A stretch of 41,765 nucleotides of DNA from Minisyncoccota bacterium (GTDB taxonomy: Bacteria; Patescibacteriota; Minisyncoccia; Phycocordibacterales; UBA12079): contig JAGLSI010000003.1 in NCBI GenBank assembly GCA_023135835.1, forward strand, positions 1-41,765, read 5' to 3'. The position numbers and the translations under genes are program-made. Below are positions 3,001 to 36,006 of this stretch, piece after piece (positions within the stretch are counted from its first letter, which is position 1; every line of letters starts with the position of its first letter). The notes below the pieces were generated by a model that saw only the letters and a program-made list of their open reading frames with translations, ran no database searches and was not told the origin of the DNA.

Positions 3001-3314
3001 ATTTTGGAACAGGAATTCAGATTGGAATGATTGCTCAAGAACTAGAAGAAGTTTACCCAGATTTGGTTTCAACAGATGATAGCGGGTTTAAATCAATTCA
3101 ATATGGTAAATTTACAGCAGTTCTGTTAGAAGCAGTTAAAGATTTAATTAATTTTGGAGAAAAAATTGAATATAGAAGTGCAAGATTAGAAAATAGAACA
3201 GCAGAATTGGAAGAAAAAAATATTGAACTTGAAAAACAGGCAGAAAGTTTAGAGCAGAAAACTCAGACATTAGAAGCTCGGATAGAAGCTCTAGAAAATA
3301 TACTTCGTCAGTAA
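3..3314 (+). CDS. Large fibre/adhesin-like protein (5'-truncated) with GNVGIGT repeats, Asn/Gly/Ser-rich beta-helical repeats, two peptidase-S74 (intramolecular chaperone) domains and a C-terminal coiled coil
   Basis: Frame is open from base 3 (NVGIGTTAPDGKLEV), so the true start lies upstream of the window. Repeated GN(V/I)GIG motifs, N-T/S-A-x-G-x-x-A/S-L repeats, SDERLK (~1975) and SDARLK (~2870) S74 motifs, each followed by G(L/M)IAQ(D/E). Confidence 0.8.
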   Translation, partial: NVGIGTTAPDGKLEVYGAGQLVSDLTDAGSRDNMLMINSSGTSGGSGGALVFGNSQSKTADSLGWAAIKAHLTNGSGNTVGNLTFSTRNSTSDTALTQRMTILSGGNIGIGVSSPSQQLEITGDFELPNTTHADESGIIYKGTSPFIHNFNYGDNGSVTTVGGNTFVGVDSGNFTMGSTAVSALSASYNTGVGEDSLKSLTLGYGNTASGYNSLASNTTGSLNSALGYYALFDNTTGNYNTGVGTESLANNTIGDSNTAIGNNSLWNNVDGSNNSALGHSALVGNEDGDLNIAIGYDAGHYYGDYAMSNTSGNKNIYLGVQTKSAGYDKENEIVIGYTAEGIGSNSVVLGNESITTTALRGNVGIGTTDPGAKTEIYQAMSDYGSAFTSPHLNLGASNTVDNTGFVGITYDTSATANYGWSSGALRSSSGQGDFVWKFHSASAVGSELMRITSTGNVGIGTTDPVSVLHIKDTTWTNLSIEATSDDPSLQLTSDGSGTSNDWTMRMDVSDSDKLQWRYDGTKKLTITSPGQLIMTNDNWLSADNNAGTDYVNMFKVNTSDEIDVGATLNVGAMEFSEDSGFVTAMDMPVSSTPTAGDIEAYAFKVDGDNILTVYAEADGAGGIQNARVGIGDSSPSYQLELSTDSAAKPGTSSWTVSSDERLKDVNGDFTRGLDALSGLYPSYFNYKTDNDLGIPSDREYVGLIAQDVQSVIPEAVREGKEGFLSIESDAIFWTMLNAIKEIGLKVGSDNITYTRDTLQVLNGTGEPQMKLAYDEENLAEFNVSAVGDLSLSTAGKDIRLPDDNLSVCSGGACSSAASLIEGTGNLVVENVAYIAGSLGVGTAQPSRGLDVYESQSDPQFRISYDDDLYSEFNVSATGDLIISAEGGDISVLNENLRVCSDEGCPSIASQIKDSGNLVVENSLLALGNVGIGGTISPDYTLDVQGTLRAYGITDASDARLKTNIQPLIHLGVAPPSEGISATLENVKKLRGVTFEWKNEDFGTGIQIGMIAQELEEVYPDLVSTDDSGFKSIQYGKFTAVLLEAVKDLINFGEKIEYRSARLENRTAELEEKNIELEKQAESLEQKTQTLEARIEALENILRQ
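2905..2933. repeat. REP-like palindrome copy 1 (in-frame within the S74 domain)
   Basis: TTCACTTGGGGGT-AGC-ACCCCCAAGTGAA, perfect 13-bp stem. Confidence 0.9.
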
Positions 3315-3326
3315 TTCTAATAATTA

Positions 3327-3353
3327 CTACTTGGGGGTAGCACCCCCAAGTAG
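3327..3353. repeat. REP-like palindrome copy 2 (5' of RAYT)
   Basis: CTACTTGGGGGT-AGC-ACCCCCAAGTAG. Confidence 0.92.
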
Positions 3354-3373
3354 GATCTCTAAGTAATAAAAAA

Positions 3374-4114
3374 ATGAGAAAAACAATAATATACAGAAAA
3401 AACGAATATTATCACATTTATAATCGGGGAGTTGATAAGAGAATTATTTTTACAGATAAATTTGATTTGCAGAGATTTTATCAAAGTATGGAAGAATTTA
3501 ATTCTGTTGAACCAATAGGGAGTATTTTTGAAAATCGTTTTAATTTAAAAAACAGAAAAGAATCGCTTGGGGGTGCTACCCCCAAGTATGGGAAATTGGT
3601 GGAAATTGTGGCTTATTGTTTAAATCCTAATCACTATCATTTAATACTAACTTCTTTAGTTGAAGGTGGAATAAGTGAATATATGAGAAGACTTAATTCT
3701 GGATATACTACTTATTTTAATCAAAGATATAAAAGAACAGGTTCATTATTTGGAGGAACTTTTAAATCTGTTTATATTAATTCAGATTCTTATTTAAGAT
3801 TTTTAAGTGTTTATGTAAATTTAAATTTTGAAGTGCATCAAAAGTTTCAAAATGTTAAAGATAAAAAATTATTTCATAAATCTAGCTGGGACGAATATAT
3901 AAAAGTTAAAATTATAAAAGGAAAAAGAGGTGAAGAGAATCAAGTCATTAATAATAAAAATGATATTTGTGATAAATCAATGATCTCGTCTCATTTTGAT
4001 TCAGTAGATCAGTATAAAAAATTTGCTTTAGAGTCGTTAAAGGACATAAAAGCAAAAAGATATAAAGATAGTGAGGTTATTAAGAAAACTTTTGAAACAA
4101 GTAAAGGGTTTTAA
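3374..4114 (+). mobile_element. REP-associated tyrosine transposase (RAYT/TnpA-REP, Y1 HUH family)
   Basis: Motifs YYHIYNRG, YCLNPNHYHL (HUH), YFNQRYKRTGSLF, YVNLN (candidate catalytic Tyr) and SSW; flanked by inverted palindromic repeats. Confidence 0.9.
3566..3586. repeat. REP-like palindrome copy 3 (in-frame inside RAYT, opposite orientation)
   Basis: CTTGGGGGT-GCT-ACCCCCAAG, translated as LGGATPK. Confidence 0.9.
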
Positions 4115-4115
4115 A

Positions 4116-4142
4116 TTACTTGGGGGTGCTACCCCCAAGTAA
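4116..4142. repeat. REP-like palindrome copy 4 (3' of RAYT)
   Basis: TTACTTGGGGGT-GCT-ACCCCCAAGTAA; loop is inverted relative to copies 1-2. Confidence 0.92.
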
Positions 4143-8062: not shown

Positions 8063-10339
8063 ATGTTAAATCAATTTATTGATATTATTAAAGATACAAC
8101 GATAACTACTATTATTTCGGTAATGGGTCTATTTGGTATGGGTGATGTTGGTTTTTTAGATTCACCAGATGTTAATTTATCTGATTTTGCTCAAGCTAAT
8201 ATCTCAGAAGCGATAAATTCTGATGTCGGTGAAGTTGTAGAGGAGTCTCCAGAAACAATTAATCCTGTGGCAAGTATTGATAATGAAGATTTATTTTCAG
8301 ATGTTCAAGAGAATCAAGTAGAACTAATAGACGGAACAGAATATTTTATTAAAGAGGATCTTCCTGAAGCTATTTTTGCTAGACCAGAACCATTGGTGGT
8401 AGTTATTCCTGAAACTGAAAATATTGTAATTACTGAATCAGGTGAGTCTCTAGTTGAGCAAGATGAGCAAGAAGAATTTATTACATTAGGAGAAGGATTG
8501 ATTGAAGATGTTCGTGTAATTAATCCTATTAAGCCAACCAAAGTTAAAAAGGAAGTAGATGTTTCTTTGATTTTAGAAACTAATTTTGATGAGTTTGATT
8601 CTAAATTGCAGATTGTTGAGATTACCGAAGATGAAGATAACTTTTTCGTAGCTTATCAATATATTACTCTTGCTGTTGAGGACAAAGTTTGGAAGGTAGT
8701 TTTAAAAGAAAAAAATATTAGTATTAATAAAAATATTTTAGAAGGAAAAGATTTAGGAAATTATTTATCTGAAGAATTAGCAGAAGTTATAAATACTGAT
8801 ATTGTTTATTTAAAGGAAGTTCAGGAAATTCAAATTATTAAAAAAGCTAAAGAAGATGCTCTTGCTTTAGTAGAGGTGGAGGAAAGTACAAGAACTGTGG
8901 CCACTGATTATTCTTCTTTGATTGGAAAGGTTCTTGATATAGAAGAAATTGATTTTGGAGATTATATTCCTTTTGTAAAAGATGAAGAAATTACAGAGAT
9001 AATCACTATTTCAGATATAATTACTAGTGAAACAGAAATAGATGAAGAGGACCCTATTGTTGATCCAGAACCTGTGGCTGAAGAAGATAATACAACTTCA
9101 ACAGGGGTAGTTGATAATCAAGCCCCGTTGTTAGTAATTCAGGGAAATAACCCAGCTTTAGTTCAAATTGGTACTAGTTATGTAGATTTAGGAGCTAAGG
9201 TAACTGATAATATTAGCGAAGGGTTGGGTGTTCATGTAGGCGGTGATGTTGTAGATACCTCAGTTAAAGGATCTTATTTTGTAATATATACAGCTACAGA
9301 CGAAGCAGGAAATGTGGCGACCGCTACAAGAGAAGTTATAGTATATGACTACGGGGTTGTTCCTGAAGTTCCAAAGGAAGATGATATTTCTGTAGATATT
9401 CCAGAAGAGGAAATTGTGGAGGAAGAAGATGCTGTGGATGAAGAAGATGCAAGTCCAGAAATAAAAGAATTAACCGTTGATAATTGGGAAGAAGGTTCTT
9501 TTGAAGAGAAAAAGATTTTTGCAGAAGATGAGCTTGGTATTAAAGTAGCTAAGAAAATTTTAGAAGAAGAATTAGATTCTTTAATTATAGAAGCTATCAA
9601 CAGGTTAGACGAGGAAGTTGTAGTTGATATGTCTCAAACTAAAGGAGAGGATATTTATGATATGGGAGTTACAGAGGAAGAGTTGGCTGAAATTATATTA
9701 GCCGAAGAAGAACAGGCTCTTGCTGAAGCTGAGGTTGATACAGTAATTGAGGTTGTTGAAGTTGTTGCTGATACTGTGGTTGAGGCTGTTAGTGAAGGTT
9801 TAGAAAATGTAAAAGAAGCAACCGAAGATATTGTAGAAGAGGTAACAGCTTCGCTTGGTTTTGTTAATGTGAAAGGCTTGTTTGGAGATGTAAATTCATT
9901 TGCAGGTAAAAATAATACAGCCCAAATTTTAAGCAATGGTGTTTATGAATTAATTGGTTCTTTGGCTGATAATTTTTATAATATTTTTAATATTATTTAT
10001 AAAAAAATAAAAACTTCCCCTGTTGGTGAAGTTGGAGGAAGCTTTAAGAAACTTTTTGTTGAAAATACAGGGAATCTAGTTCCTTTTATAAGTTTTTCTT
10101 ATAATAAAATAAAAGAGGCGCCAATTACTGTGATCTCTAAATTATCTGGGGTTTCATCTTTAGCTGGTATAAAATATTCAAAAGAAGATTATCTTGGTGA
10201 AGAGCTTGTTGTAGATGAAATAGAAGAAATAAATAAAACAGGAGCATTAAAGGAAAAAGTTTCCGCTGCAGGAAGATTTATGAAATATAGTTTAAATAAA
10301 ACATTAGATTTTTTTAAAAATAATAAACCTGCTATTTAA
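8063..10339 (+). CDS. Highly acidic putative surface protein with a DUF5011/Ig-like domain
   Basis: E/D-rich; DNQAPLLVIQGNNP...YVDLGAKVTDN...VDTSVKGSYFVIYTATDEAGN...TREVIV matches the Ig-like (DUF5011) pattern. Confidence 0.65.
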   Translation: MLNQFIDIIKDTTITTIISVMGLFGMGDVGFLDSPDVNLSDFAQANISEAINSDVGEVVEESPETINPVASIDNEDLFSDVQENQVELIDGTEYFIKEDLPEAIFARPEPLVVVIPETENIVITESGESLVEQDEQEEFITLGEGLIEDVRVINPIKPTKVKKEVDVSLILETNFDEFDSKLQIVEITEDEDNFFVAYQYITLAVEDKVWKVVLKEKNISINKNILEGKDLGNYLSEELAEVINTDIVYLKEVQEIQIIKKAKEDALALVEVEESTRTVATDYSSLIGKVLDIEEIDFGDYIPFVKDEEITEIITISDIITSETEIDEEDPIVDPEPVAEEDNTTSTGVVDNQAPLLVIQGNNPALVQIGTSYVDLGAKVTDNISEGLGVHVGGDVVDTSVKGSYFVIYTATDEAGNVATATREVIVYDYGVVPEVPKEDDISVDIPEEEIVEEEDAVDEEDASPEIKELTVDNWEEGSFEEKKIFAEDELGIKVAKKILEEELDSLIIEAINRLDEEVVVDMSQTKGEDIYDMGVTEEELAEIILAEEEQALAEAEVDTVIEVVEVVADTVVEAVSEGLENVKEATEDIVEEVTASLGFVNVKGLFGDVNSFAGKNNTAQILSNGVYELIGSLADNFYNIFNIIYKKIKTSPVGEVGGSFKKLFVENTGNLVPFISFSYNKIKEAPITVISKLSGVSSLAGIKYSKEDYLGEELVVDEIEEINKTGALKEKVSAAGRFMKYSLNKTLDFFKNNKPAI

Positions 10340-10353
10340 TTAGAAAAAATAAC

Positions 10354-11403
10354 ATGATAAAAACAGATAAAATTAGAGTTGCTATAAATGGTTTTGGTAG
10401 AATAGGCCGAGCTTTTTATAAATTAGCTTTAGCAGAGCCACAGATAGAAATTGTTGCTGTTAATGATTTGTCAGATATAGACAATTTAAATTATCTCTTA
10501 AAGTACGATAGTGCTTATGGATTATCAGAATGCAAGTCTTTAGAAAAAGATATTTTTTATAATGAACCAGATCCACAATATTTACCATGGAAAGAATTAG
10601 AGGTAGATATTGTTGTTGAGTCTACAGGAGCTTTTAATACTTATGAAAAAGCGAGTGCTCATATTAAAGCTGGGGCAAAAAAAGTAGTTTTGAGTGCCCC
10701 TGTAAAAGAAAATAAAAATCCTTTAGAAGAGAAAGAAATTTCAGGACCTGATATTCCAGAATATAATTTAAAAGGAAAAACTGTTTTAATGGGAATAAAT
10801 GAAGATGAGTTGAAAGATTGTTACATTAGTGCTAATGGTTCTTGTACTACTAATGCTGTTAGTCCTGTTTTGCAAATTTTAAATCAAAAAATAGGTATAG
10901 AAAAAGCTTTGTTGAATACAATTCATTCATATACTTCTACGCAAAGATTGGTTGACTCCACTAATAAAAAAGATTTTAGAAAGGGGAGAGCTGCTGCTCA
11001 AAATATAATTCCTTCTACTACAGGAGCTGCAATTGCTACAACCTTAGCTATAAAAGAATTGGCTGGGAAATTTGATGGTATGTCGGTTAGAGTTCCCACT
11101 TTAGTTGGTTCGTTAGTTGATTTAACTTTTATAACTAAGAGAAATGTAAGCGTAGAGGAACTAAATTCAATCTTAAAAGAAGCGACTCAAGATAAAAGAT
11201 GGGATGGAATTTATAATGTAACAGAGGATCCGATTGTTTCTTCTGATATTATCGCTAATCCTTATGCTGCCTTAGTTGATTTATCTTTAACAAAGGTGGT
11301 TGATGGTAACTTAGTAAAAGTTTTGATTTGGTATGATAATGAAATGGGTTATACTAATACTTTAATTAAGCATGTTTTAAAAACGAGTGAAAGTTTAAAT
11401 TAG
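10354..11403 (+). CDS. gap: Type I glyceraldehyde-3-phosphate dehydrogenase
   Basis: INGFGRIGR, GSCTTN catalytic motif, WYDNE. Confidence 0.97.
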   Translation: MIKTDKIRVAINGFGRIGRAFYKLALAEPQIEIVAVNDLSDIDNLNYLLKYDSAYGLSECKSLEKDIFYNEPDPQYLPWKELEVDIVVESTGAFNTYEKASAHIKAGAKKVVLSAPVKENKNPLEEKEISGPDIPEYNLKGKTVLMGINEDELKDCYISANGSCTTNAVSPVLQILNQKIGIEKALLNTIHSYTSTQRLVDSTNKKDFRKGRAAAQNIIPSTTGAAIATTLAIKELAGKFDGMSVRVPTLVGSLVDLTFITKRNVSVEELNSILKEATQDKRWDGIYNVTEDPIVSSDIIANPYAALVDLSLTKVVDGNLVKVLIWYDNEMGYTNTLIKHVLKTSESLN

Positions 11404-11413
11404 TTAGTAATTT

Positions 11414-11490
11414 GAAGTCCGACCTCTTAACTAAAATATTCGTAACCTTTAGTTATTCGTTTTGTTTTCTTAATACTGAGGTCGGACTTC
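11414..11490. repeat. Inverted doublet of a 13-bp quasi-palindrome (second REP-like family)
   Basis: GAAGTCCGACCTC (11414-11426) and its exact reverse complement GAGGTCGGACTTC (11478-11490). Confidence 0.75.
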
Positions 11491-11551
11491 TTAATTATTT
11501 TGAACCGATAATTTAGAAATTTAAATAAAATTAAAAATTAATAGTAAAATT

Positions 11552-12007
11552 ATGGAAAAAACAATAAAAATTTTGATAGCTTCGGATCATGCAGGATTTG
11601 AGTTAAAAGAAGTTCTAAAACCCTTTTTAATAGATTTAGGTTATGAAGTAGAAGATGAAGGTGCTTTTGAATATCATTCAGAAGATGATTATCCTGATTT
11701 TATAAATCCCTTAGCTTCTAAAGTATCTCAAAATTCAGAAGAATATAAAGGAATTATTTTAGGTTCTTCTGGGCAAGGAGAGGCTATTGTTGCTAATCGC
11801 TTTAAGGGAGTAAGGGCTGTTGTTTTTAATTCTTCAAATTTAGAAATAATAAAATTATCCAGAGAACACAACAATGCAAATATATTGTCTTTAGGAGCTA
11901 AGTTCCTTTCTGATAAAGAGGCTCAGGATGCAGTGAAATTGTGGTTAGAAACTTCTTTCCCTGAAGAAGTTAGGCATGTTCGTAGAATTGAAAAAATAGA
12001 TAATTAG
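11552..12007 (+). CDS. rpiB: Ribose-5-phosphate isomerase B (RpiB/LacAB family)
   Basis: ASDHAGFELK, DDYPDF, GSSGQGE (Glu-type, as in mycobacterial RpiB), REHNNAN, RHVRR. Confidence 0.93.
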   Translation: MEKTIKILIASDHAGFELKEVLKPFLIDLGYEVEDEGAFEYHSEDDYPDFINPLASKVSQNSEEYKGIILGSSGQGEAIVANRFKGVRAVVFNSSNLEIIKLSREHNNANILSLGAKFLSDKEAQDAVKLWLETSFPEEVRHVRRIEKIDN

Positions 12008-12140
12008 TAATTAATTATTAGTTAAACCAGTGATAAAACGACAAAGGTTTGATTGGTTTAATATAGAAGTTAAAGGAGAAGCTGTTTATATAACATCAAT
12101 GGTATTTAAAATTAATTTTAAATATAACAAGATATTATAA

Positions 12141-12160
12141 TACTCCAGTTAACTGGAGTA
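12141..12160. promoter_or_regulatory. Perfect palindrome copy 1, putative operator overlapping a TATAAT -10 box
   Basis: TACTCCAGTTAACTGGAGTA; TATAAT at 12136-12141. Confidence 0.7.
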
Positions 12161-12205
12161 ATGTTAAAATAATTTTATTATATTTTATTATATTTTATTT
12201 ATATT

Positions 12206-12643
12206 ATGGTTAACGTATCAAAACAAAGATTAAGTAGAAATGTTTTAAATCAAATCAATGATAGATTAATTAGTGTTGTTTCTAATTTAAAAACAAATTC
12301 TTTTACAGGGAATTTTTTAGATGATTTGTTGAGTGAATCTGAAAAAATAACTTTAGCCAAAAGATTAGCTGTTATATTTATGCTTCAAGAAAATATAAGC
12401 TGGTATAGAATTTCTACTTTATTGAAAGTAAGTCAAACTACAGTCAGGAAGATTGCTGTGGATATTGATTTAGAAAAATATGAAAATATTTTAAAGATTG
12501 TTAATCAAAGAAAAAATAGAATCACTTTTTGGACAGGAATGGAAATTGTTTTAAAGGCGGGAATGCCTCCGATTGTAGGAAAGGGAAGATGGGATTTTCT
12601 TAATGATTTAGATGAAAAATATAATTTAAAGAATAAAGAATAA
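12206..12643 (+). CDS. TrpR-like (Trp repressor/YerC-YecD family) HTH protein
   Basis: FLDDLLSESEKITLAKRLAV...ISWYRISTLLKVSQTTVRK resembles the TrpR LLTxxE...xxR...SQRxI...VSxATI pattern. Confidence 0.75.
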   Translation: MVNVSKQRLSRNVLNQINDRLISVVSNLKTNSFTGNFLDDLLSESEKITLAKRLAVIFMLQENISWYRISTLLKVSQTTVRKIAVDIDLEKYENILKIVNQRKNRITFWTGMEIVLKAGMPPIVGKGRWDFLNDLDEKYNLKNKE

Positions 12644-12670
12644 AGAATAAAGAATAGAGAATAGAGAATA
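12627..12670 (+). repeat. 7-bp tandem repeat x6 spanning the TrpR-like stop codon
   Basis: (TAAAGAA)4(TAGAGAA)2. Confidence 0.8.
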
Positions 12671-12676
12671 AATTAG

Positions 12677-12704
12677 TAATTACTCCAGTTAACTGGAGTA
12701 ATTA
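12677..12704. repeat. Perfect palindrome copy 2
   Basis: TAATTACTCCAGTTAACTGGAGTAATTA (28 bp). Confidence 0.9.
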
Positions 12705-12872
12705 AATCTATTTAACACAAATCATTTGAGATAATTATCTATTATTAGTTATTTATATATGTAGTAGTTAAAATACTTTAACTATCTCAGTTAATTATGG
12801 TAACCGAAAATGTTTGTGAGGTTTTTAATAGATTAGACTAATTTAATTTTAATAAATAAAAAATATCAAAAG

Positions 12873-12896
12873 ATTACTCCAGTTAACTGGAGTAAT
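12873..12896. repeat. Perfect palindrome copy 3
   Basis: ATTACTCCAGTTAACTGGAGTAAT (24 bp). Confidence 0.9.
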
Positions 12897-12944
12897 ATAA
12901 GTGTTAATATTAGTGTTGTAGTATAAATAACTTGTAAGAATAAA

Positions 12945-13703
12945 TTATTTTTTCTTTAAATATTGTCCGATTTTCCACCAAAAGATTTTTTGTTGGTCTT
13001 TAATTGATTTACGACTCTCTTTTACTTCTGACCAATATTGATAAATAATATTTTCTGGAATTCTTTTAAAAAACCCTAGATAGAAACCAAAAGAACCTTT
13101 GCCTTTTTTATTTGTTTCCTGAAAATATTCTCTTATTTCAGCAACTAAGTAATGTTTTTCGGAATGAAGTGAGCTTTTTTTATTATTATTTTGTGGAGAT
13201 AATAGATTTCCAATGCTTTGAACTCCCTTACCACTTAATTTAACCTCTTTTTTTTCTGGAAGAAAAGGCTTTAATTTGCTACTAATAAAATCTGGGATAA
13301 TTTTTTTACTATAATTTTTAATAGTATTTTTTTCTGAAATTTCAGAAATTTTATTCAGCTCTTTTTTAATAGTTTTTGTAAAAATTTTTTCTAATGAAAA
13401 GTCTAAGGTATTTTTAATTTTAGCTGTTTTTGTTTCTATGTCTTTAATAACTTCTTCAGAAAGAAAAGGAAATTCATAAGGGTTTGTAGTTTTGTTTATC
13501 TGAATATCAGTTTTTCTTAAAAATTGTTTTGTATTTTTTGAGTTATCTATTCCTATAATTAAAACAGGTTTTTCTTTTTTATTATTTGATTGTGAGTAAG
13601 GGGCTAGAATAATAGAACCAATTGAAAAGTTTTCTTGAGTAAAAAACAAGGCTGGTTTTTGAAATTTATTTCTATATATAGGAATAACAGTTAGTATATT
13701 CAT
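12945..13703 (-). CDS. Hypothetical basic protein; N-terminus reminiscent of the PriA 3'-DNA-binding domain, small helical C-terminal domain
   Basis: 252-aa ORF; VIPI...FFT..FSIGSIILAP..K..VLII pattern; no helicase motifs. Confidence 0.55.
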   Translation of the reverse strand: MNILTVIPIYRNKFQKPALFFTQENFSIGSIILAPYSQSNNKKEKPVLIIGIDNSKNTKQFLRKTDIQINKTTNPYEFPFLSEEVIKDIETKTAKIKNTLDFSLEKIFTKTIKKELNKISEISEKNTIKNYSKKIIPDFISSKLKPFLPEKKEVKLSGKGVQSIGNLLSPQNNNKKSSLHSEKHYLVAEIREYFQETNKKGKGSFGFYLGFFKRIPENIIYQYWSEVKESRKSIKDQQKIFWWKIGQYLKKK

Positions 13704-13856
13704 AATTTAATTATATACTATCTATTCATTAAAGCACCAGAACCTACCTACATCAGTAGGTATAAAAATAATTATTGAATTATTCTTGTAAATATGGACA
13801 ATATTAATTTTTCATGATATGTTTTTAATAGATTTGTAAAATAAAATTTTTTAAAA

Positions 13857-14312
13857 ATGGGGGGTATTATGGATGAAATAAGTAGGATAAAGATTTCTTA
13901 TAAAAATTGGTTATCTTCTGTCCAGAAATGGATAAAGATATTAAGAAAGGTTCAAAAAAGAGAATCTTTTTCTAATAATGATGGTTTTAAGTCATTAGTT
14001 GTAATGAATGATTGCGGTTATTGCGAAGAAAGCGAATTTCTTGGAAATGAATTCTGTGGGTGTCAAGGTTGTCATCTTCATCAAAAACAAAGGATGTATT
14101 TTCCTCCAGGAATGATTGTTGGAAAGAAATTTCCTGTTTGTTTTTCGTATGTATATCCAGAAAGTCATTTTTCCTTGTTTGTTTCTGAAATGAGGAAAAA
14201 TTTTGTTGATTTTGAGGTGGCAGAATACCATAGTGAAATAATTTTGGATACAATTTTAAAAGATTGTCCTGATAAAGGCAGGGCAAAAAGAGATGGAATT
14301 GTTGTTCGATAA
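13857..14312 (+). CDS. Hypothetical Cys-rich protein
   Basis: 151-aa ORF with CGYC...CGCQGCH...C...C; followed by a strong hairpin. Confidence 0.55.
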   Translation: MGGIMDEISRIKISYKNWLSSVQKWIKILRKVQKRESFSNNDGFKSLVVMNDCGYCEESEFLGNEFCGCQGCHLHQKQRMYFPPGMIVGKKFPVCFSYVYPESHFSLFVSEMRKNFVDFEVAEYHSEIILDTILKDCPDKGRAKRDGIVVR

Positions 14313-14314
14313 CA

Positions 14315-14358
14315 AATAACCCTGTATCTTATCTAGGTAGATAAGATACAGGGTTATT
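14315..14358. terminator. Long perfect hairpin between convergent genes
   Basis: AATAACCCTGTATCTTATCTA-GG-TAGATAAGATACAGGGTTATT, 21-bp stem. Confidence 0.7.
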
Positions 14359-14362
14359 ATAA

Positions 14363-15007
14363 TTAATAAGATACTTCCATTAAGTTGTTATTATCTAAGA
14401 TATAAATATTATTATCATCTTTTTTAATAAAAGTAGGGTTTTTACCTTTATAAATTGGTTGTAAGTTTTGCTCTGTTTCGTAATCAACTCCTAATGCATA
14501 AATACCATCATCTAATGCCATTAAAATAACATCATCTCTGTTTTTATAAAAATCAATTGCTGTTATCTGCTTTTTAATTTCTATTGTAGATATTGTTTCA
14601 AGAGCTTCTGTTGAAATTAAGTTTTTTCTAAAATCAGCCATAATAGTCCAATATTCAGAATCTGCTTTTTCTATTATAAAACCACTAGTATTTTGAGGGA
14701 CAAAAAATGGATTTAATTCAAGAGTTTTTTCCCCGAAGATTTCTATTTCTTTAGTCCAGGGCCAGTATCCTTCTTTGTAAACAAGTACATTATGAATTCC
14801 ATTTTTTATTTTAAATTCAGGGTTAATACTATTTGTTGATTTTTCCTGTGTGTTATCTATGTAAATAACCAGAGTTTCGTCTAAGCTATTTATTTGTAAA
14901 AAACCATTTTGTTTTTTATCGTAATTAAAATAAAATAAACTACCTAAAATTAATATTAATATTCCTATAACTATTAATGAATTCTTTTCTTTTTTATTTT
15001 TTTGCAT
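14363..15007 (-). CDS. Membrane-anchored PEGA-domain protein
   Basis: N-terminal TM; GFLQINS...IYID...GIHNVLVYKEGYWPWTKEIEI PEGA pattern. Confidence 0.75.
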   Translation of the reverse strand: MQKNKKEKNSLIVIGILILILGSLFYFNYDKKQNGFLQINSLDETLVIYIDNTQEKSTNSINPEFKIKNGIHNVLVYKEGYWPWTKEIEIFGEKTLELNPFFVPQNTSGFIIEKADSEYWTIMADFRKNLISTEALETISTIEIKKQITAIDFYKNRDDVILMALDDGIYALGVDYETEQNLQPIYKGKNPTFIKKDDNNIYILDNNNLMEVSY

Positions 15008-15041
15008 TTTTTAATTCTACCATTACTTAAATTAAAATCAA

Positions 15042-15070
15042 TTGTAAATTTTTTAAAATAATCGTATGAT
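15042..15070 (+). promoter_or_regulatory. Sigma70-type promoter candidate for murA-mreB
   Basis: TTGTAA-17-TATGAT. Confidence 0.45.
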
Positions 15071-15167
15071 GAAGAGGTAATTTAAAAATTAAATTAAAAG
15101 ATATTTATTAGAAGTAAAAAGGGACTTGTTCCTTTAAAGATACTTTTAATAAAGTATCTTTAACGGG

Positions 15168-17654: not shown

Positions 17655-18344
17655 ATGTTTTTAAACAAAGAAAATTTACACCACGCTTATCTTTTAGAAG
17701 GAGAAAGGGATTTAATTTTACCAGATCTTTTGTTTTTTTTGGAAAAAGAATTAAATTTTCAAATTTCTTCTAATCCAGATTTATATTTGAGAGATTTTGT
17801 TACTTTTGGGATTGATGATGGGAAAATTATTAAAGATTTTCAGTCTAAAAAACCTGTTGTTGGAAATAAGCAAGTTATAATTATTCAAACTAATTTTATA
17901 ACTAATGAAGCTCAAAATTCATTATTAAAAATGTTTGAGGAGCCAACTAAAGATGTTCATATATTTTTAATAATTCAGTCTTCTGAAAATCTTCTAGCAA
18001 CTCTTAAATCTCGTCTTCAAATAATTAAGTTTGAAAATGATAGTGTAGACAAAGAAGATTTAGTAATAGAGTTTTTAAAATCAAATCTTTCGAAAAGATT
18101 TGATTTAATTAAAGAATTTTTACCTAAAACTACTAAAGATAAGGCTGATAAGGTTGGGGCTATACAGTTTTTAAATAGTTTGGAAAAAACTTTGCATAAA
18201 AAGTTTTCAGATAAAAAAGAAGATTTTTTAGATTTTGAAAATATTTTTATAGAAATTAGCAAGTGCCGTTCGTATTTAAATGACCGTTCCCCGTCAGTTA
18301 AAATGATTTTAGAGCATATTTCTCAAATAATTCCTATAAATTAA
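17655..18344 (+). CDS. holB: DNA polymerase III delta-prime-like clamp-loader subunit (reduced)
   Basis: HHAYLLEG, NPD, GIDD, EAQNSLLKMFEEP, LATLKSR; lacks Walker A and the Zn module. Confidence 0.75.
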   Translation: MFLNKENLHHAYLLEGERDLILPDLLFFLEKELNFQISSNPDLYLRDFVTFGIDDGKIIKDFQSKKPVVGNKQVIIIQTNFITNEAQNSLLKMFEEPTKDVHIFLIIQSSENLLATLKSRLQIIKFENDSVDKEDLVIEFLKSNLSKRFDLIKEFLPKTTKDKADKVGAIQFLNSLEKTLHKKFSDKKEDFLDFENIFIEISKCRSYLNDRSPSVKMILEHISQIIPIN

Positions 18345-18371
18345 ACATAAGGTTTTTTATATAAAGATGAT

Positions 18372-18968
18372 ATGGCTATAAATAAAACAGAGCAAATGAA
18401 AAAAATAATGGAGGAAATTTTAAATCTTAAAAAATCTCCTTTATATGCTGAAAGAATTAAAAATAAAGCTTTTCCTGTTATTGGAGAAGGGGACTGTGAT
18501 GCAGAAATTGTGTTTGTAGGGGAAGCTCCTGGGAAAAATGAAGCCAAAACAGGTAAACCTTTTTGTGGAGCTTCAGGAAGGGTTTTGGATGAACTTTTAG
18601 ACTCTATTAAATTAAAAAGAGAAGATGTTTATGTTACTAATATAGTCAAAGATAGACCAACGGCTAATAGAGATCCTTCAAAAGATGAAATTAAAATTTA
18701 CGGACCTTTTTTAGATAAGCAGATTGAAATTATTCAGCCTAAGATAATCGCTACTTTGGGGAGATATTCAGCAGAATATATTATGAAAAGATTTGGTTTG
18801 GAAGAAGAAATTGAAACAATTGGGAAAATGCGAGGAAAAGCTTTTGAGGTCAAGACTTCTTATGGCTTAGTTAAGATTATTCCTTTACTTCATCCTGCTG
18901 TGGCGTTATATAATTCATTTAGTCGCGATGACCTTAAAAAAGACTTTAAGGTTTTGGAAAATAGATAA
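18372..18968 (+). CDS. Uracil-DNA glycosylase, family 4
   Basis: VGEAPGKNE...PFCGASG, TNIVKDRP..NRDP, HPA. Confidence 0.9.
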   Translation: MAINKTEQMKKIMEEILNLKKSPLYAERIKNKAFPVIGEGDCDAEIVFVGEAPGKNEAKTGKPFCGASGRVLDELLDSIKLKREDVYVTNIVKDRPTANRDPSKDEIKIYGPFLDKQIEIIQPKIIATLGRYSAEYIMKRFGLEEEIETIGKMRGKAFEVKTSYGLVKIIPLLHPAVALYNSFSRDDLKKDFKVLENR

Positions 18969-19006
18969 AAAATAAACGGCTCATTATAATGAGCCGTTTA
19001 TTTTTT
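18967..19006 (+). terminator. Intrinsic terminator (AACGGCT family)
   Basis: AAAAAATAAACGGCTCATT-AT-AATGAGCCGTTTATTTTTT. Confidence 0.8.
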
Positions 19007-21281: not shown

Positions 21282-21313
21282 TTTTAACGGCTCAACTTGT
21301 TGAGCCGTTAAAA
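21282..21313. terminator. Hairpin (AACGGCT family) after alaS
   Basis: TTTTAACGGCTCAAC-TT-GTTGAGCCGTTAAAA. Confidence 0.65.
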
Positions 21314-32614: not shown

Positions 32615-32637
32615 AAGTAGCGCTCCGAGCGCTACTT
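32615..32637. repeat. AGTAGCGCT palindrome (intact copy)
   Basis: AAGTAGCGCTC-C-GAGCGCTACTT. Confidence 0.7.
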
Positions 32638-35966: not shown

Positions 35967-36006
35967 AAAAATCTAACGGCTACGCTACTGTAGCCGTTAG
36001 ATTTTT
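35967..36006. terminator. Bidirectional terminator (AACGGCT family)
   Basis: AAAAATCTAACGGCTAC-GCTACT-GTAGCCGTTAGATTTTT. Confidence 0.75.

What the first reader, a model, noticed from the sequence alone, without database searches (positions are those of the whole stretch)
12136..12896. TrpR-like gene bracketed by three identical trp-operator-like palindromes
Seen: TACTCCAGTTAACTGGAGTA occurs three times with no mismatch: overlapping a TATAAT box 45 nt before the gene, 33 nt after the stop, and ~195 nt further downstream in a convergent intergenic region. Known: the symmetrised E. coli trp operator is GTACT-AGTTAACT-AGTAC; this site equals TACT-CC-AGTTAACT-GG-AGTA, the same elements with 2 bp added per side. 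No trp genes are in the window, and two sites lie downstream where simple repression is not expected. Inference: a self-contained TrpR-like protein plus cognate sites that loops or organises DNA, controls an unannotated RNA between sites 2 and 3, or moves as a cassette; its layout parallels the RAYT-REP locus. One of the best candidates here for an undescribed system.
Basis: partly seen in the sequence, partly recalled or inferred. Interest (0 to 1): 0.8.

Follow-up and report, generated by a model that had tools for sequence, protein, structure and literature searches.

The report
TrpR-like protein with its own palindromes
A small DNA-binding protein gene in a tiny-genome bacterium is bracketed by perfect palindromes that very probably are its own binding sites, and the same protein-plus-palindrome pairs, each with a different matching sequence, recur and spread through the genomes of related bacteria.

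Summary
TACTCCAGTTAACTGGAGTA occurs three times exactly, around a 145-aa gene of the Trp-repressor fold.

Of 42 homologue loci across the order, 38 carry matching palindromes both before the start and after the stop. The palindrome sequence changes with the protein.

Residue 3 of an N-terminal arm tracks the central bases. The first two residues of the recognition helix track the outer bases. A prediction made from this code was then confirmed on a metagenome locus.

The upstream copy abuts or overlaps the gene's likely promoter, so autorepression is the likely mechanism.

The palindromes are not confined to the gene. There are 3-32 copies of a core per gene-bearing genome and 0-3 in most genomes without the gene. 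Copies are intergenic, enriched between convergent genes and lack promoters. Their arms are extended to perfect palindromes of up to 68 bp, unique at each site.

This resembles REP repeats or terminators, not a regulon. How the copies spread, and what the protein does at them, is unknown. No RNA data exist and no description was found in print. Verdict: new variant of a known kind; interest 0.74.

The parts
12141..12160 (.). Site 1: 20-bp perfect palindrome; likely operator of the TrpR-like gene's own promoter; lies 134 nt after the rpiB stop
   Evidence: Exact match. The centre lies 55 nt before the ATG. In 38 of 42 homologue loci a cognate palindrome lies 9-170 nt before the start.
12162..12170 (+). 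TGTTAAAAT, an extended -10-like element directly after site 1; candidate promoter of the gene
   Evidence: Pattern hit. Relatives carry (A)TGTTATAAT or TGGTATAAT at the same offset after their upstream palindrome. Inference only; no transcript data.
12136..12141 (+).
   Evidence: Sequence. A -10-like hexamer starts at this offset (-14) in 6 of 31 upstream-proximal palindromes and in 0 of 31 downstream ones.
12206..12643 (+). Gene for a 145-aa TrpR-fold helix-turn-helix protein with an N-terminal arm (MVNVSKQ...), recognition helix (VSQTTVRK, residues 75-82) and a C-terminal extension (residues ~100-145) specific to this Patescibacteria subfamily
   Evidence: ORF. PF01371 at 35.9 bits against a cut-off of 27. 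AlphaFold model pLDDT 83. Best Foldseek hits are TrpR/YerC structures. Homodimer model scores 0.70 against a best control of 0.00.
12677..12704 (.). Site 2: 28-bp perfect palindrome (core 12681-12700) 33 nt after the stop; hairpin at the 3' end of the gene and second binding site
   Evidence: RNA hairpin -15.5 kcal/mol, z -5.9. Flagged terminator-like on both strands by the consensus scan.
12873..12896 (.). Site 3: 24-bp perfect palindrome (core 12875-12894), 48 nt after the stop of the convergent minus-strand gene 12945-13703
   Evidence: RNA hairpin on the minus strand -13.0 kcal/mol, z -5.1, followed by CTTTTGA.

Best explanation
The gene encodes a dimeric DNA-binding protein of the Trp-repressor (TrpR/HisR-YerC) fold that recognises the 20-bp palindrome TACTCCAGTT|AACTGGAGTA.

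- How it reads the site: the recognition helix (VS-Q-T-TV) reads the outer part of each half-site. A basic N-terminal arm (residue 3) reads the centre.
- Site 1: it abuts the gene's promoter, so the protein represses its own synthesis.
- Sites 2 and 3: they lie after the stops of the gene and of its convergent neighbour. When transcribed they form strong hairpins. Most likely they close off the unit as terminators or protein roadblocks.
- Dispersed copies: the same 20-24-bp unit has been copied to other intergenic places. These are mostly gene ends without promoters, where its arms have been extended into long perfect palindromes.

Protein and palindromes form a co-evolving pair that diversifies into many specificities across Patescibacteria.

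Shown here: the anatomy, the conservation, the covariation, the dispersal and the fold. Inferred: binding, autorepression, the terminator or roadblock role, and copy-and-paste spread.

My own odds per step: binding 0.85, autorepression 0.7, copy-and-paste origin of the dispersed copies 0.6, terminator/insulator role 0.45.
For: (1) Family and fold.
- PF01371 scores above its cut-off.
- A profile search of solved structures gives YerC/TrpR-like structures 3kor, 3frw and 3g1c at E 1e-8 to 2e-7.
- Foldseek top hits are all TrpR/YerC, with probability 1.0 and target TM 0.67-0.77.
- The homodimer model scores 0.70 against a best control of 0.00, a mark reached by 20 of 30 solved homo-pairs and 1 of 23 single chains. 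Its runs agree in at least 91% of contacts and its pLDDT is at least 75.
- TrpR and HisR operators are 20-bp palindromes, and HisR and TrpR are often autoregulated (PMC9413887, passages).

(2) Conserved bracket.
- 28 of 42 homologue loci have perfect cognate palindromes on both sides.
- This rises to 38 of 42 when up to 2 mismatches per 20-mer are allowed.
- Long forms in other orders of the phylum show the same layout: 6 of 18 loci on both sides and 5 of 18 on one side.

(3) Covariation.
- The strongest of all protein-column by site-position pairs is residue 3 with the central base (excess mutual information 1.13).
- N3 goes with GTT|AAC in 15 of 15 loci. H3 goes with TA|TA in 13 of 13.
- Helix residues: D with ACCCC, K with AGTCC, I-A with AGTGC, Q or E with ACTCC, P with ATTCC.

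(4) Prediction.
- From this code, P0016 (N3 plus P) was predicted to carry TATTCCAGTTAACTGGAATA (note).
- Its locus has exactly that sequence, once upstream and twice downstream.

(5) Promoter geometry.
- Extended -10 motifs lie 12-23 nt after the centre of the upstream palindrome at cassettes. They are rare at dispersed copies: 9 hits at 81 sites, 6 of them at cassette-upstream sites.

(6) Numbers track the gene.
- Ten of 41 relatives have 3 or more CAGTTAACTG copies, and 9 of those 10 have the gene.
- The 3 remaining gene-bearing genomes instead have 7-23 CGATATATCG copies.
- Genomes without the gene mostly have 0-3.

(7) Copying.
- A 24-bp unit is identical at 12 of 13 ATTCCAGTT-type sites of G003, with unrelated flanks.
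- Shared asymmetric centre variants occur in the up- and downstream copies of one locus (L032 and L027).

(8) Terminator-like features.
- Hairpin energies.
- A-run...T-run flanks at 19 sites against 5 in the opposite order, among 81 sites.
- Convergent gaps hold 23 of 60 site-bearing regions, against 56 of 482 intergenic regions in G000.
- No Rho RNA-binding domain was found in the 90%-complete genome.
Against: - No binding, transcript or termination data exist. No RNA run holds the locus (listed under Tried and rejected).
- Whole sets of perfect palindromes exist without a detected cognate gene: 13 ATTCCAGTT-type sites in G003, 14 CAGTTAACTG-core sites in G002 (the largest type among the 11 fetched is TATCGCAGTT), and 5 CAGTTAACTG sites in G005. 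So the sites persist without the protein, or cross-binding occurs, or genes are missing from draft assemblies. G002 contigs end at palindromes.
- 28 of 81 sites have no T-run on either side and 5 have the reverse order. Many are therefore not canonical terminators.
- Perfect arms of up to 31-34 bp that stop abruptly cannot be explained by protein binding or by selection on RNA. Mean extra pairing after the first mismatch is 0.78.
- Foldseek E-values are weak (0.04-0.2).
- The dimer pass may rest on likeness to solved TrpR dimers.
- Covariation counts are not phylogenetically independent.
- Scores against the NCBIfam YerC/YecD and TrpR models are below their cut-offs.
Confidence: 0.6

Rival explanations
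1. REP/RAYT-like selfish pair. The palindromes are short mobile repeats and the TrpR-like protein is their dedicated partner. It would be required for their spread or maintenance, for example by recruiting a host nuclease or polymerase to the palindrome centre or by stabilising extruded hairpins. Transcription control would be secondary.
For: - The gene is flanked by its own repeats, and the copies are dispersed, intergenic and biased to gene ends.
- Copy numbers track the gene.
- Several protein/palindrome lineages coexist in one genome. G003 has 4 genes and 46 hits to the two cores searched, 32 CAGTTAACTG and 14 CAATCGATTG.
- Dispersed copies are not at shared positions in congeners. None of G010's 3 matches any of G014's 3, and the G003 sites whose flanking genes map to G000 have no CAGTTAACTG or CAATCGATTG core at the G000 position.
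- A 24-bp unit is identical at 12 loci with unrelated flanks.
- In G010 the palindrome rides in a ~145-bp repeat that is 93-95% identical.
- Arm extension is perfect and then stops, which points to a DNA-level copying process.
Against: - The protein has no nuclease or recombinase domain. Its invariant residues are M1, S5, E46, K52, R53 and T79.
- No precise empty site or target duplication could be shown, because intergenic DNA is too diverged between the available genomes.
- The downstream palindrome is conserved across an order (38 of 42 loci). That argues for a function at the gene itself, not mere accumulation.
- Orphan palindrome sets stay perfect without a detected cognate gene.
Confidence: 0.25
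2. Ordinary ligand-responsive repressor with a regulon. The dispersed palindromes are operators that control the neighbouring genes, as for TrpR or HisR.
For: - TrpR-family membership and a 20-bp palindromic operator format.
- About half of the site-bearing regions lie between same-strand genes, where a downstream promoter could be controlled (31 of 60 regions).
Against: - 23 of 60 regions are convergent gaps with no promoter to control.
- Dispersed copies lack the adjacent -10 element that cassette sites have.
- In same-strand gaps, 12 of 16 dispersed copies lie nearer the upstream stop than the next start. Median distances are 199 and 322 nt.
- The neighbouring genes share no theme in G000: ribosomal protein L21, cold-shock protein, acetyltransferase, holA-like, by my reading of the ORFs.
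- Positions are not conserved among congeners.
- No trp or his genes adjoin the sites.
Confidence: 0.12
3. Chromosome-organising protein in the manner of ParB/parS, MatP/matS or Noc. Dimers on dispersed palindromes bridge DNA through the C-terminal extension. The sites flanking the gene form a loop.
For: - The number of sites per genome (5-46) and their palindromic form resemble such systems (recalled).
- A subfamily-specific C-terminal extension with two further helices could mediate higher-order contacts.
- Paired sites lie 430-580 bp apart around the gene.
Against: - Sites are strictly intergenic: 12 of 12 in G000, where about 13% of the genome is intergenic by my ORF call. Known organiser sites are not so restricted (recalled).
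- Several paralogues with different sites coexist in one small genome, and the gene is patchy among close relatives (12 of 41 genomes). That is odd for a core function.
- Spacing shows no helical phasing (my arithmetic).
- Draft assemblies prevent a test of chromosomal clustering.
Confidence: 0.08
4. The palindromes are simply intrinsic terminators or other RNA hairpins, and their association with the gene is incidental.
For: - The genome has 224 perfect hairpins with arms of 10 or more and at least 3 G/C per arm. Many sit at gene ends with A/T-run flanks.
- The three local sites fold strongly.
Against: - Incidental association cannot explain the same-sequence pair around the gene in 38 of 42 loci.
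- It cannot explain the covariation with protein residues or the confirmed prediction.
- The upstream copy lies before the likely transcription start.
- There is no tolerance of G-T pairs or mismatches in the arms.
Confidence: 0.04

Closest known systems
Trp repressor family (Pfam PF01371): E. coli TrpR and the histidine repressor HisR (B. subtilis YerC)
   Same: - Helix-turn-helix fold and a likely intertwined dimer.
- A 20-bp palindromic operator with a GTnnAC-type centre, and frequent autoregulation (PMC9413887, passages).
   Different: - About 40-50 residues longer, with a conserved C-terminal extension (GMPPxVGKGRW in this order) and a sequence-reading N-terminal arm.
- Below the NCBIfam cut-offs for both YerC/YecD and TrpR.
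- No amino-acid biosynthesis genes as targets.
- A second cognate site after the stop codon in nearly all loci, and dozens of promoter-less dispersed copies.
- Several paralogues per genome, each with its own site.
- The ligand, if there is one, is unknown.
REP elements with their RAYT (REPIN-RAYT) genes
   Same: - The gene is flanked by its own short palindromic repeats.
- The repeats are dispersed in intergenic DNA, preferentially at gene ends.
- Repeat populations track the gene, and several pairs coexist per genome.
- The same genome also holds canonical Y1-transposase genes flanked by their own hairpin families, one of them in this window at 3599-3817.
   Different: - The partner protein is a helix-turn-helix DNA binder with no HUH/Y1 catalytic domain.
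- The repeats are perfect zero-loop palindromes.
- Each copy has its own perfectly symmetric arm extension.
Repressors with auxiliary operators downstream of the promoter (LacI O2, GalR OI; recalled)
   Same: Cognate sites lie on both sides of a transcription unit, which would allow looping.
   Different: The second site here lies after the stop of the regulator's own gene and doubles as a hairpin. No tetramerisation has been shown, and no helical phasing was seen.
Controller (C) proteins of restriction-modification systems (recalled)
   Same: A small autoregulating helix-turn-helix dimer with a palindromic box at its own promoter, diversifying into many non-cross-reacting specificities.
   Different: - No restriction or methylase genes lie beside any of the loci inspected. 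In G000 the neighbours are rpiB and a 252-aa protein of unknown function.
- The sites also lie downstream of the gene and are dispersed.

Membership tests
Trp repressor family (Pfam PF01371) | Sequence match to the family model above its curated cut-off | tested here: met
   35.9 bits against a cut-off of 27, E 7.9e-9, residues 19-83. Relatives in the protein database all carry PF01371.
Trp repressor family (Pfam PF01371) | All-helical TrpR fold with an intertwined homodimer | tested here: met
   The model has pLDDT 83. The top Foldseek hits are TrpR/YerC structures (probability 1.0, E 0.04-0.2). The homodimer model scores 0.70 against a best control of 0.00, with contacts in helices 11-58. 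This may be a pass by likeness to solved TrpR dimers.
Trp repressor family (Pfam PF01371) | Binds a roughly 20-bp palindromic operator | tested here: inconclusive
   A 20-bp palindrome is present, it covaries with the protein, and a prediction from that was confirmed.
Trp repressor family (Pfam PF01371) | Amino-acid co-repressor and control of trp or his genes | tested here: not met
   No trp or his genes lie next to any site in G000. Dispersed sites lack promoters. Ligand binding cannot be tested with these tools.
YerC/YecD (NCBIfam TIGR02531) and TrpR (TIGR01321) equivalogs | Score above the curated cut-off | tested here: not met
   23.2 bits against 42.2, and 17.7 against 67.25. It is a separate subfamily.
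REP-RAYT (REPIN-RAYT) systems | Gene flanked by its cognate repeats, with further dispersed intergenic copies | tested here: met
REP-RAYT (REPIN-RAYT) systems | The partner gene encodes an HUH/Y1 transposase | tested here: not met
   The gene is PF01371 only. The genome's four Y1_Tnp hits are elsewhere and have their own hairpin families.
Intrinsic (Rho-independent) terminators | Stable hairpin followed by a T-run | tested here: inconclusive
   Sites 2 and 3 pass a consensus scan. Of 81 sites, 19 have A-run...T-run flanks, 28 have a one-sided T-run, 28 have none, 5 have the reverse order and 1 has both. No transcript ends are available.
ParB/parS-, MatP/matS-type organisers | Sites clustered in one chromosomal domain, with protein bridging or spreading | not testable with these tools
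   Assemblies are drafts (35 contigs in G000). No oligomer beyond the dimer was tested.

The most novel reading that the evidence does not exclude
This would be a new class of repeat-and-partner symbiosis in Patescibacteria. Units of 20-24 bp, perfectly palindromic, copy themselves into intergenic DNA. Their arms are then extended by a fold-back or template-switch process centred on the palindrome.

Each repeat lineage is tied to its own TrpR-fold protein, which reads the repeat with an N-terminal arm and a recognition helix. In function this is a REPIN-RAYT analogue with a pure DNA-binding partner.

Protein-bound palindromes may serve the host as switchable bidirectional terminators in a genome in which no Rho domain was found.
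Probability: 0.3. Interest if true: 0.85.

Novelty: new variant of a known kind. Interest (0 to 1): 0.74.

Why it matters
- **Regulators in Patescibacteria.** These bacteria have very small genomes, few recognisable regulators and almost no genetics. Here is a widespread family. It was found in 50 of 301 genomes sampled in the order and 69 of 301 in the phylum, and it has 1672 cluster representatives at E 1e-10. Its DNA targets can be read directly from the genome.
- **A readable recognition code.** The code is simple and has already made one successful prediction. This is a natural system for studying how protein-DNA specificity diversifies. It is also a possible source of orthogonal repressor/operator pairs.
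- **Dispersed perfect palindromes.** Copies of up to 62-68 bp raise two open questions. How are such sequences generated and tolerated? Do protein-bound palindromes act as terminators or insulators where no Rho domain was found?
- **If the repeats depend on the protein for their spread.** It would be a repeat-partner system without a transposase.

Tried and rejected
- **RNA evidence.** No RNA holder was listed for window 11400-13800; 4 DNA runs of one study hold it. Laying the contigs of those 4 runs on 10300-15100 showed only that contigs break at the palindromes (pieces end at 12163 and start at 12211 and 12628). There was also a depth spike at 12554-12714. No contig joins across the cassette and no excised form was seen. 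This is no evidence either way.
- **Unannotated RNA between sites 2 and 3.** No Rfam hit at gathering score anywhere in the window except two tRNAs. Fold z-scores are -1.36 on the + strand and -2.05 on the - strand. No ORF of 30 aa or more lies there.
- **Empty-site analysis.** Seven G003 intergenic regions with palindromes were aligned to the orthologous G000 regions. The DNA is too diverged to define insertion boundaries or target duplications. One G003 cassette, with an added gene, lies where window 18335-18435 has no palindrome.
- **Cassette replacement at the rpiB locus.** The G005 gene at the same position has a different palindrome (TAGTTCAATCGATTGAACTA). Its nucleotide identity along the gene, 41-53 of 60 per window, is only a little below that of the flanking genes. 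The protein tree is mostly unresolved, with 8 of 12 inner branches open. I could not decide between in-place divergence and conversion by a paralogue.
- **Helical phasing of upstream and downstream sites.** None is apparent, by my arithmetic.
- **Phage origin.** A tblastn search of 50,697 phage records found no match.
- **Literature.** Searches for YerC plus Trp repressor, TrpR plus Patescibacteria, YecD or YerC, Candidate Phyla Radiation plus palindromic repeat plus intergenic and Trp repressor, palindrome, flanked, helix-turn-helix, repetitive extragenic gave no description of this arrangement. Only PMC9413887 was read, as passages found by term. Supplements were not seen.
- **Promoter scan.** The consensus scan found no more promoter-like sites than shuffles did (8 against a mean of 8.5). 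The promoter call rests on the conserved motif in relatives.
- **Rows dropped.** L022 (G021, a 66-residue match at E 4.5e-4, no similar palindrome) was left out of the 42-locus count. L175 (a match with 4 stops) was left out. The seven loci whose ORF start my first script over-extended were left out of alignment A1 (35 of 42 rows). Four loci without a clear site were left out of the covariation table (38 of 42).
- **My own ORF calls.** ORFs come from my own crude longest-ORF script with a minimum of 80 aa. The four G038 sites it marked 'coding' lie at ORF ends.
Full report
**1. The observation**

The 20-mer TACTCCAGTTAACTGGAGTA occurs three times without mismatch, at 12141-12160, 12681-12700 and 12875-12894. 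No match was found in 100 shuffles. Two copies are longer perfect palindromes: 12677-12704 (28 bp) and 12873-12896 (24 bp).

They bracket a 145-aa ORF at 12206-12643 on the + strand. The ORF matches Pfam Trp_repressor above its cut-off (35.9 against 27 bits). Upstream lies rpiB (11552-12007). Downstream lies a convergent 252-aa gene of unknown function (12945-13703).

The window is contig C23 of a 572,592-base, 35-contig genome with 30% G+C. Public names of close relatives of the protein say Patescibacteria or 'Candidatus Pacebacteria'.

**2. What the protein is**

A profile of 35 homologues finds the solved YerC/TrpR-like structures 3kor, 3frw and 3g1c at E 1e-8 to 2e-7. E. coli TrpR follows at E 0.04 and weaker.

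The AlphaFold model (pLDDT 83) has eight helices. Its best Foldseek hits are all TrpR or YerC-like proteins (probability 1.0, target TM 0.67-0.77, E 0.04-0.2).

A two-copy model gives an intertwined dimer with score 0.70 against a best control of 0.00. That mark was reached by 20 of 30 solved homo-pairs and 1 of 23 single chains. The runs agree in at least 91% of contacts and pLDDT is at least 75. TrpR dimers are solved, so this shows likeness, not proof.

The protein scores below the NCBIfam cut-offs for YerC/YecD and TrpR. Three features set it apart:
- a conserved N-terminal tail (M-x-x-V/I-S-K-K-K-L, S5 invariant);
- a recognition helix V-S-x-x-T-V;
- a C-terminal extension ending in GMPPxVGKGRW.

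It is therefore a separate subfamily of the TrpR family. According to PMC9413887 (passages), TrpR and HisR (YerC) bind 20-bp palindromes and HisR is often autoregulated.

**3. The bracket is conserved and the palindrome changes with the protein**

The protein has relatives in 12 of 41 nearest genomes and in 50 of 301 genomes sampled in the order. There are often several per genome: G000 has 2, G003 has 4, G005 has 2 and G007 has 2.

I examined 42 loci, leaving out L022.
- 28 have perfect cognate palindromes both before the start and after the stop.
- With up to two mismatches per 20-mer the count is 38 of 42.
- One locus has only upstream copies. One has only a downstream copy, with just 69 nt of upstream sequence available. 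Two have none.

The upstream centre lies 9-170 nt before the start. The downstream centre lies from 8 nt before the end of the stop codon to about 210 nt after it.

The sequences differ from locus to locus. Examples:
- TATTCCAATCGATTGGAATA at the second G000 copy (C33);
- TACCCCAGTTAACTGGGGTA;
- TAGTGCAGTTAACTGCACTA;
- TCATACGATATATCGTATGA;
- TACTATCATATATGATAGTA.

Long forms of the protein in other orders of the phylum show the same layout with yet other palindromes: 6 of 18 loci on both sides and 5 of 18 on one side. The four short YerC-like forms of about 120 aa among the 18 have none.

**4. A recognition code, and a test of it**

I compared all protein columns with all ten half-site positions for 38 loci. 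The strongest pair is residue 3 with the base next to the dyad.
- N3 goes with GTT|AAC (15 of 15 loci).
- H3 goes with TA|TA (13 of 13).
- R3 goes with ATC|GAT, TTT|AAA or ATT|AAT.

In the close family the first two residues of the recognition helix track positions 6-8:
- D-T with ACCCC;
- K-S with AGTCC;
- I-A with AGTGC;
- Q or E with ACTCC;
- P with ATTCC.

These counts are not phylogenetically independent. However, centre and arm types assort separately; for example, N3 occurs with TCGGTT arms in L030 and L049.

I then noticed that G003 and G000 hold ATTCCAGTT-type sites with no matching gene. The metagenome locus of P0016 has exactly that palindrome, once upstream and twice downstream. 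Two further new loci fit the R3 rule.

I take sequence-specific binding of the protein to these palindromes as very likely. An N-terminal arm that reads the operator centre is known from other repressors (recalled, not tested here).

**5. Autoregulation**

In the close family the upstream palindrome is followed within a few bases by (A)TGTTATAAT or TGGTATAAT, an extended -10. In this window the equivalent is TGTTAAAAT at 12162-12170.

The palindrome would thus cover about -40 to -20 of the promoter. In the CGATATATCG-type loci the palindrome lies only 9-20 nt before the ATG, so it overlaps the -10 region of what must be leaderless or short-leader transcripts.

Such -10 motifs were found 9 times at the 81 sites examined. 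Six of the hits are at upstream sites of cassettes. This geometry supports repression of the gene by its own product. It is an inference; there are no transcript data.

**6. The palindromes are dispersed repeats**

The core CCAGTTAACTG G occurs 8 times in G000, written without the space as CCAGTTAACTGG. All copies are intergenic. Three carry symmetric variants, ATTCCAG..CTGGAAT and AGTCCAG..CTGGACT. The core of the second paralogue occurs 4 times.

CAGTTAACTG counts across 41 relatives:

| Genome | Count | TrpR-like gene found |
|---|---|---|
| G003 | 32 | yes |
| G007 | 32 | yes |
| G038 | 29 | yes |
| G002 | 14 | no |
| G000 | 8 | yes |
| G006 | 6 | yes |
| G005 | 5 | yes |
| G010 | 5 | yes |
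| G014 | 5 | yes |
| G036 | 3 | yes |
| the other 31 genomes | 0-2 | 3 of 31 (G019, G021, G035) |

Nine of the ten genomes with 3 or more copies have the gene.

CGATATATCG counts:
- 10, 23 and 7 in the three gene-bearing genomes of that type, and 0-3 elsewhere;
- 6-32 in five further gene-bearing genomes.

The reversed control pattern gave 0-5.

The exception is G002: 14 sites of the CAGTTAACTG core, the largest type among the 11 fetched being TATCGCAGTT, and no gene found. It has contigs that begin or end at palindromes, so the gene may be unassembled.

**7. Where the dispersed copies lie**

I called ORFs with my own script. Site-bearing regions fall as follows:

| Genome | Same-strand gaps | Convergent gaps | Divergent gaps |
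|---|---|---|---|
| G000 | 4 | 3 | 0 |
| G003 | 20 | 15 | 5 |
| G038 | 7 | 5 | 1 |
| Total | 31 | 23 | 6 |

. The G000 baseline is 367, 56 and 59 intergenic regions, or 67%, 16% and 17% by length. Convergent gaps are thus over-represented two- to three-fold. This is much like the genome's generic perfect hairpins, which fall 115, 46 and 9.

Further points:
- In same-strand gaps, 12 of 16 dispersed copies lie nearer the upstream stop.
- The copies are not positionally conserved. The G003 sites whose flanks map to G000 have no CAGTTAACTG or CAATCGATTG core at the G000 position. G010 and G014 share none of their three dispersed copies each.
- One suggestive case: G003 has a TAGTCCAG-type cassette between the same two genes where G000 has a lone TAGTCCAG palindrome (C12:41589) beside other genes.

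This pattern is not that of a promoter regulon. It fits gene-end elements such as REPs or terminators.

**8. Perfect, site-specific arm extensions**

There are 81 distinct sites in G000, G003 and G038.
- The median perfect arm is 13 bp. Sixteen sites have arms of 20 or more, and the longest is 31 (a 62-bp perfect palindrome). G014 has one with 34-bp arms.
- Beyond the shared 20-24-bp unit the arm sequence is different at every site.
- Mean extension beyond 10 bp is 5.2, against 0.46 expected from composition.
- After the first mismatch only 0.78 further pairs follow.
- First mismatches are not enriched for G-T.

So the symmetry is exact and then ends. That is the mark of a DNA-level copying event, such as fold-back or template switching centred on the palindrome. 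It is not the mark of selection on an RNA stem or on a protein site.

A-run...T-run flanks, the form of a bidirectional terminator, occur at 19 sites against 5 in the reverse order. Twenty-eight sites have a one-sided T-run and 28 have none.

The shared unit itself is identical at many loci with unrelated flanks: 24 bp at 12 of 13 ATTCCAGTT sites of G003. It must have been copied; it cannot have evolved in place. Copies at one locus share asymmetric centre variants (L032 and L027). In G010 the palindrome travels inside a ~145-bp repeat.

How the unit is copied is unexplained.

**9. Context in this genome**

G000 has 224 perfect hairpins with arms of 10 or more and at least 3 G/C per arm. Several are repeated hairpin families.

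It has four Y1-transposase (RAYT-like) hits, one of them in the window at 3599-3817, flanked by its own hairpin family. The genome thus also holds canonical REP-RAYT-type pairs. The TrpR-like pair is a parallel arrangement with a different kind of protein.

No Rho RNA-binding domain was found in this 90%-complete genome.

**10. How it most likely works**

- A dimer binds each 20-bp palindrome.
- Binding at site 1 shuts off the adjacent promoter.
- Sites 2 and 3 form -15.5 and -13.0 kcal/mol hairpins when transcribed and pass a terminator scan. They end the transcripts of the gene and of its convergent neighbour, and may be reinforced or modulated by bound protein.
- The dispersed copies are products of a copy-and-extend process. 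The host may use them as terminators.

I cannot decide here whether the protein merely exploits them, controls them, or is needed for their spread. Orphan sets of perfect palindromes without a detected cognate gene count against strict dependence.

**11. Novelty**

The family, the 20-bp palindromic operator and autoregulation are known for TrpR and HisR. Five features appear to be new:
- the near-universal second site after the stop codon;
- the reading N-terminal arm;
- the multiplication into paralogues with private palindromes;
- the dozens of promoter-less dispersed copies;
- the long perfect arm extensions.

Five literature searches found no description. The library lacks most subscription journals, and supplements were closed.

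The family is large. It has 3748 cluster representatives at E 0.001, 1672 at 1e-10 and 196 at 1e-30. It is present in 69 of 301 genomes sampled across the phylum at E 1e-8, a count that includes shorter YerC-like forms.

Noticed in passing
window 2905-4142: A Y1-transposase (RAYT/IS200-like) match at 3599-3817 (PF01797, 30.7 bits) sits among three copies of the hairpin ACTTGGGGGT(loop)ACCCCCAAGT at 2905-2933, 3327-3353 and 4116-4142. The same hairpin recurs on at least seven other contigs. This is a canonical REP-RAYT-type pair.
   Followed up: partly
G000 genome-wide; window 18967-19006, 21282-21313, 32615-32637, 35967-36006: The 572-kb genome holds 224 perfect hairpins with arms of 10 or more and at least 3 G/C per arm. 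Several are repeated families: CCTGCCTGCCGGCAGGCAGG (about 13 copies), TAAACGGCTCA..TGAGCCGTTTA, AAAATTCCATCGGCTCA..TGAGCCGATGGAATTTT, ACAGCGCTCCAAGCGCTGT and ACGGATTTTGGC..GCCAAAATCCGT. I did not look into whether any has a protein partner.
   Followed up: no
G000 whole genome: No Rho RNA-binding domain (PF07497) was found in the 90%-complete assembly, while 9 of 14 control genomes ring. Together with the hairpin load, this suggests reliance on hairpin termination.
   Followed up: partly
L155 (G014:C12, centre at locus position 1798) and L118 (G003:C12, centre 2538): Perfect palindromes of 68 bp and 62 bp are centred on the TrpR-type core. This is unusually long for bacterial chromosomes.
   Followed up: partly
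L112 (G003:C6) 3490-3770: Four palindromes with three different cores form one array: CCATTTAAATGG, GCAGTTAACTGC and CCAATCGATTGG twice. All share the outer flank AATACT..AGTATT. The last two lie in a ~52-bp tandem duplication.
   Followed up: no
L151-L153 (G010:C25): The three dispersed palindromes of G010 lie inside a ~145-190-bp non-coding repeat that is 87-95% identical. It sits after secF-like and nuclease-like genes and looks like a MITE-type element.
   Followed up: partly
proteins of L012, L025 and relatives: Two C-terminal variants occur: GMPPIVGKGRW-FL and GIPSxVGAGQWNxL. They combine with the same recognition-helix type. The D-T type at the same chromosomal position in G003 and G007 has different C-termini, which suggests recombination between paralogues.
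   Followed up: partly
window 12634-12668: The 3' end of the gene and the DNA after it form a short AT-rich tandem repeat (AATAAAGAATAAAGAATAGAGAATAGAGAATAAA). Summed contig depth in the four metagenome runs spikes 4- to 8-fold over 12554-12714.
   Followed up: no
window 12945-13703 (-): The 252-aa convergent neighbour has only sub-threshold Pfam hits (Tad5 at 22.9 bits and RIP_P131-like at 19.9 bits, both below 27). It is conserved beside the cassette in G005 at 77% identity.
   Followed up: no
G468 (another order of the phylum): Seven matches to the TrpR-like profile occur in one 0.8-Mb genome, four of them on one contig. Their palindromes were not examined, except at L162, where none was seen within 200 nt.
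   Followed up: no
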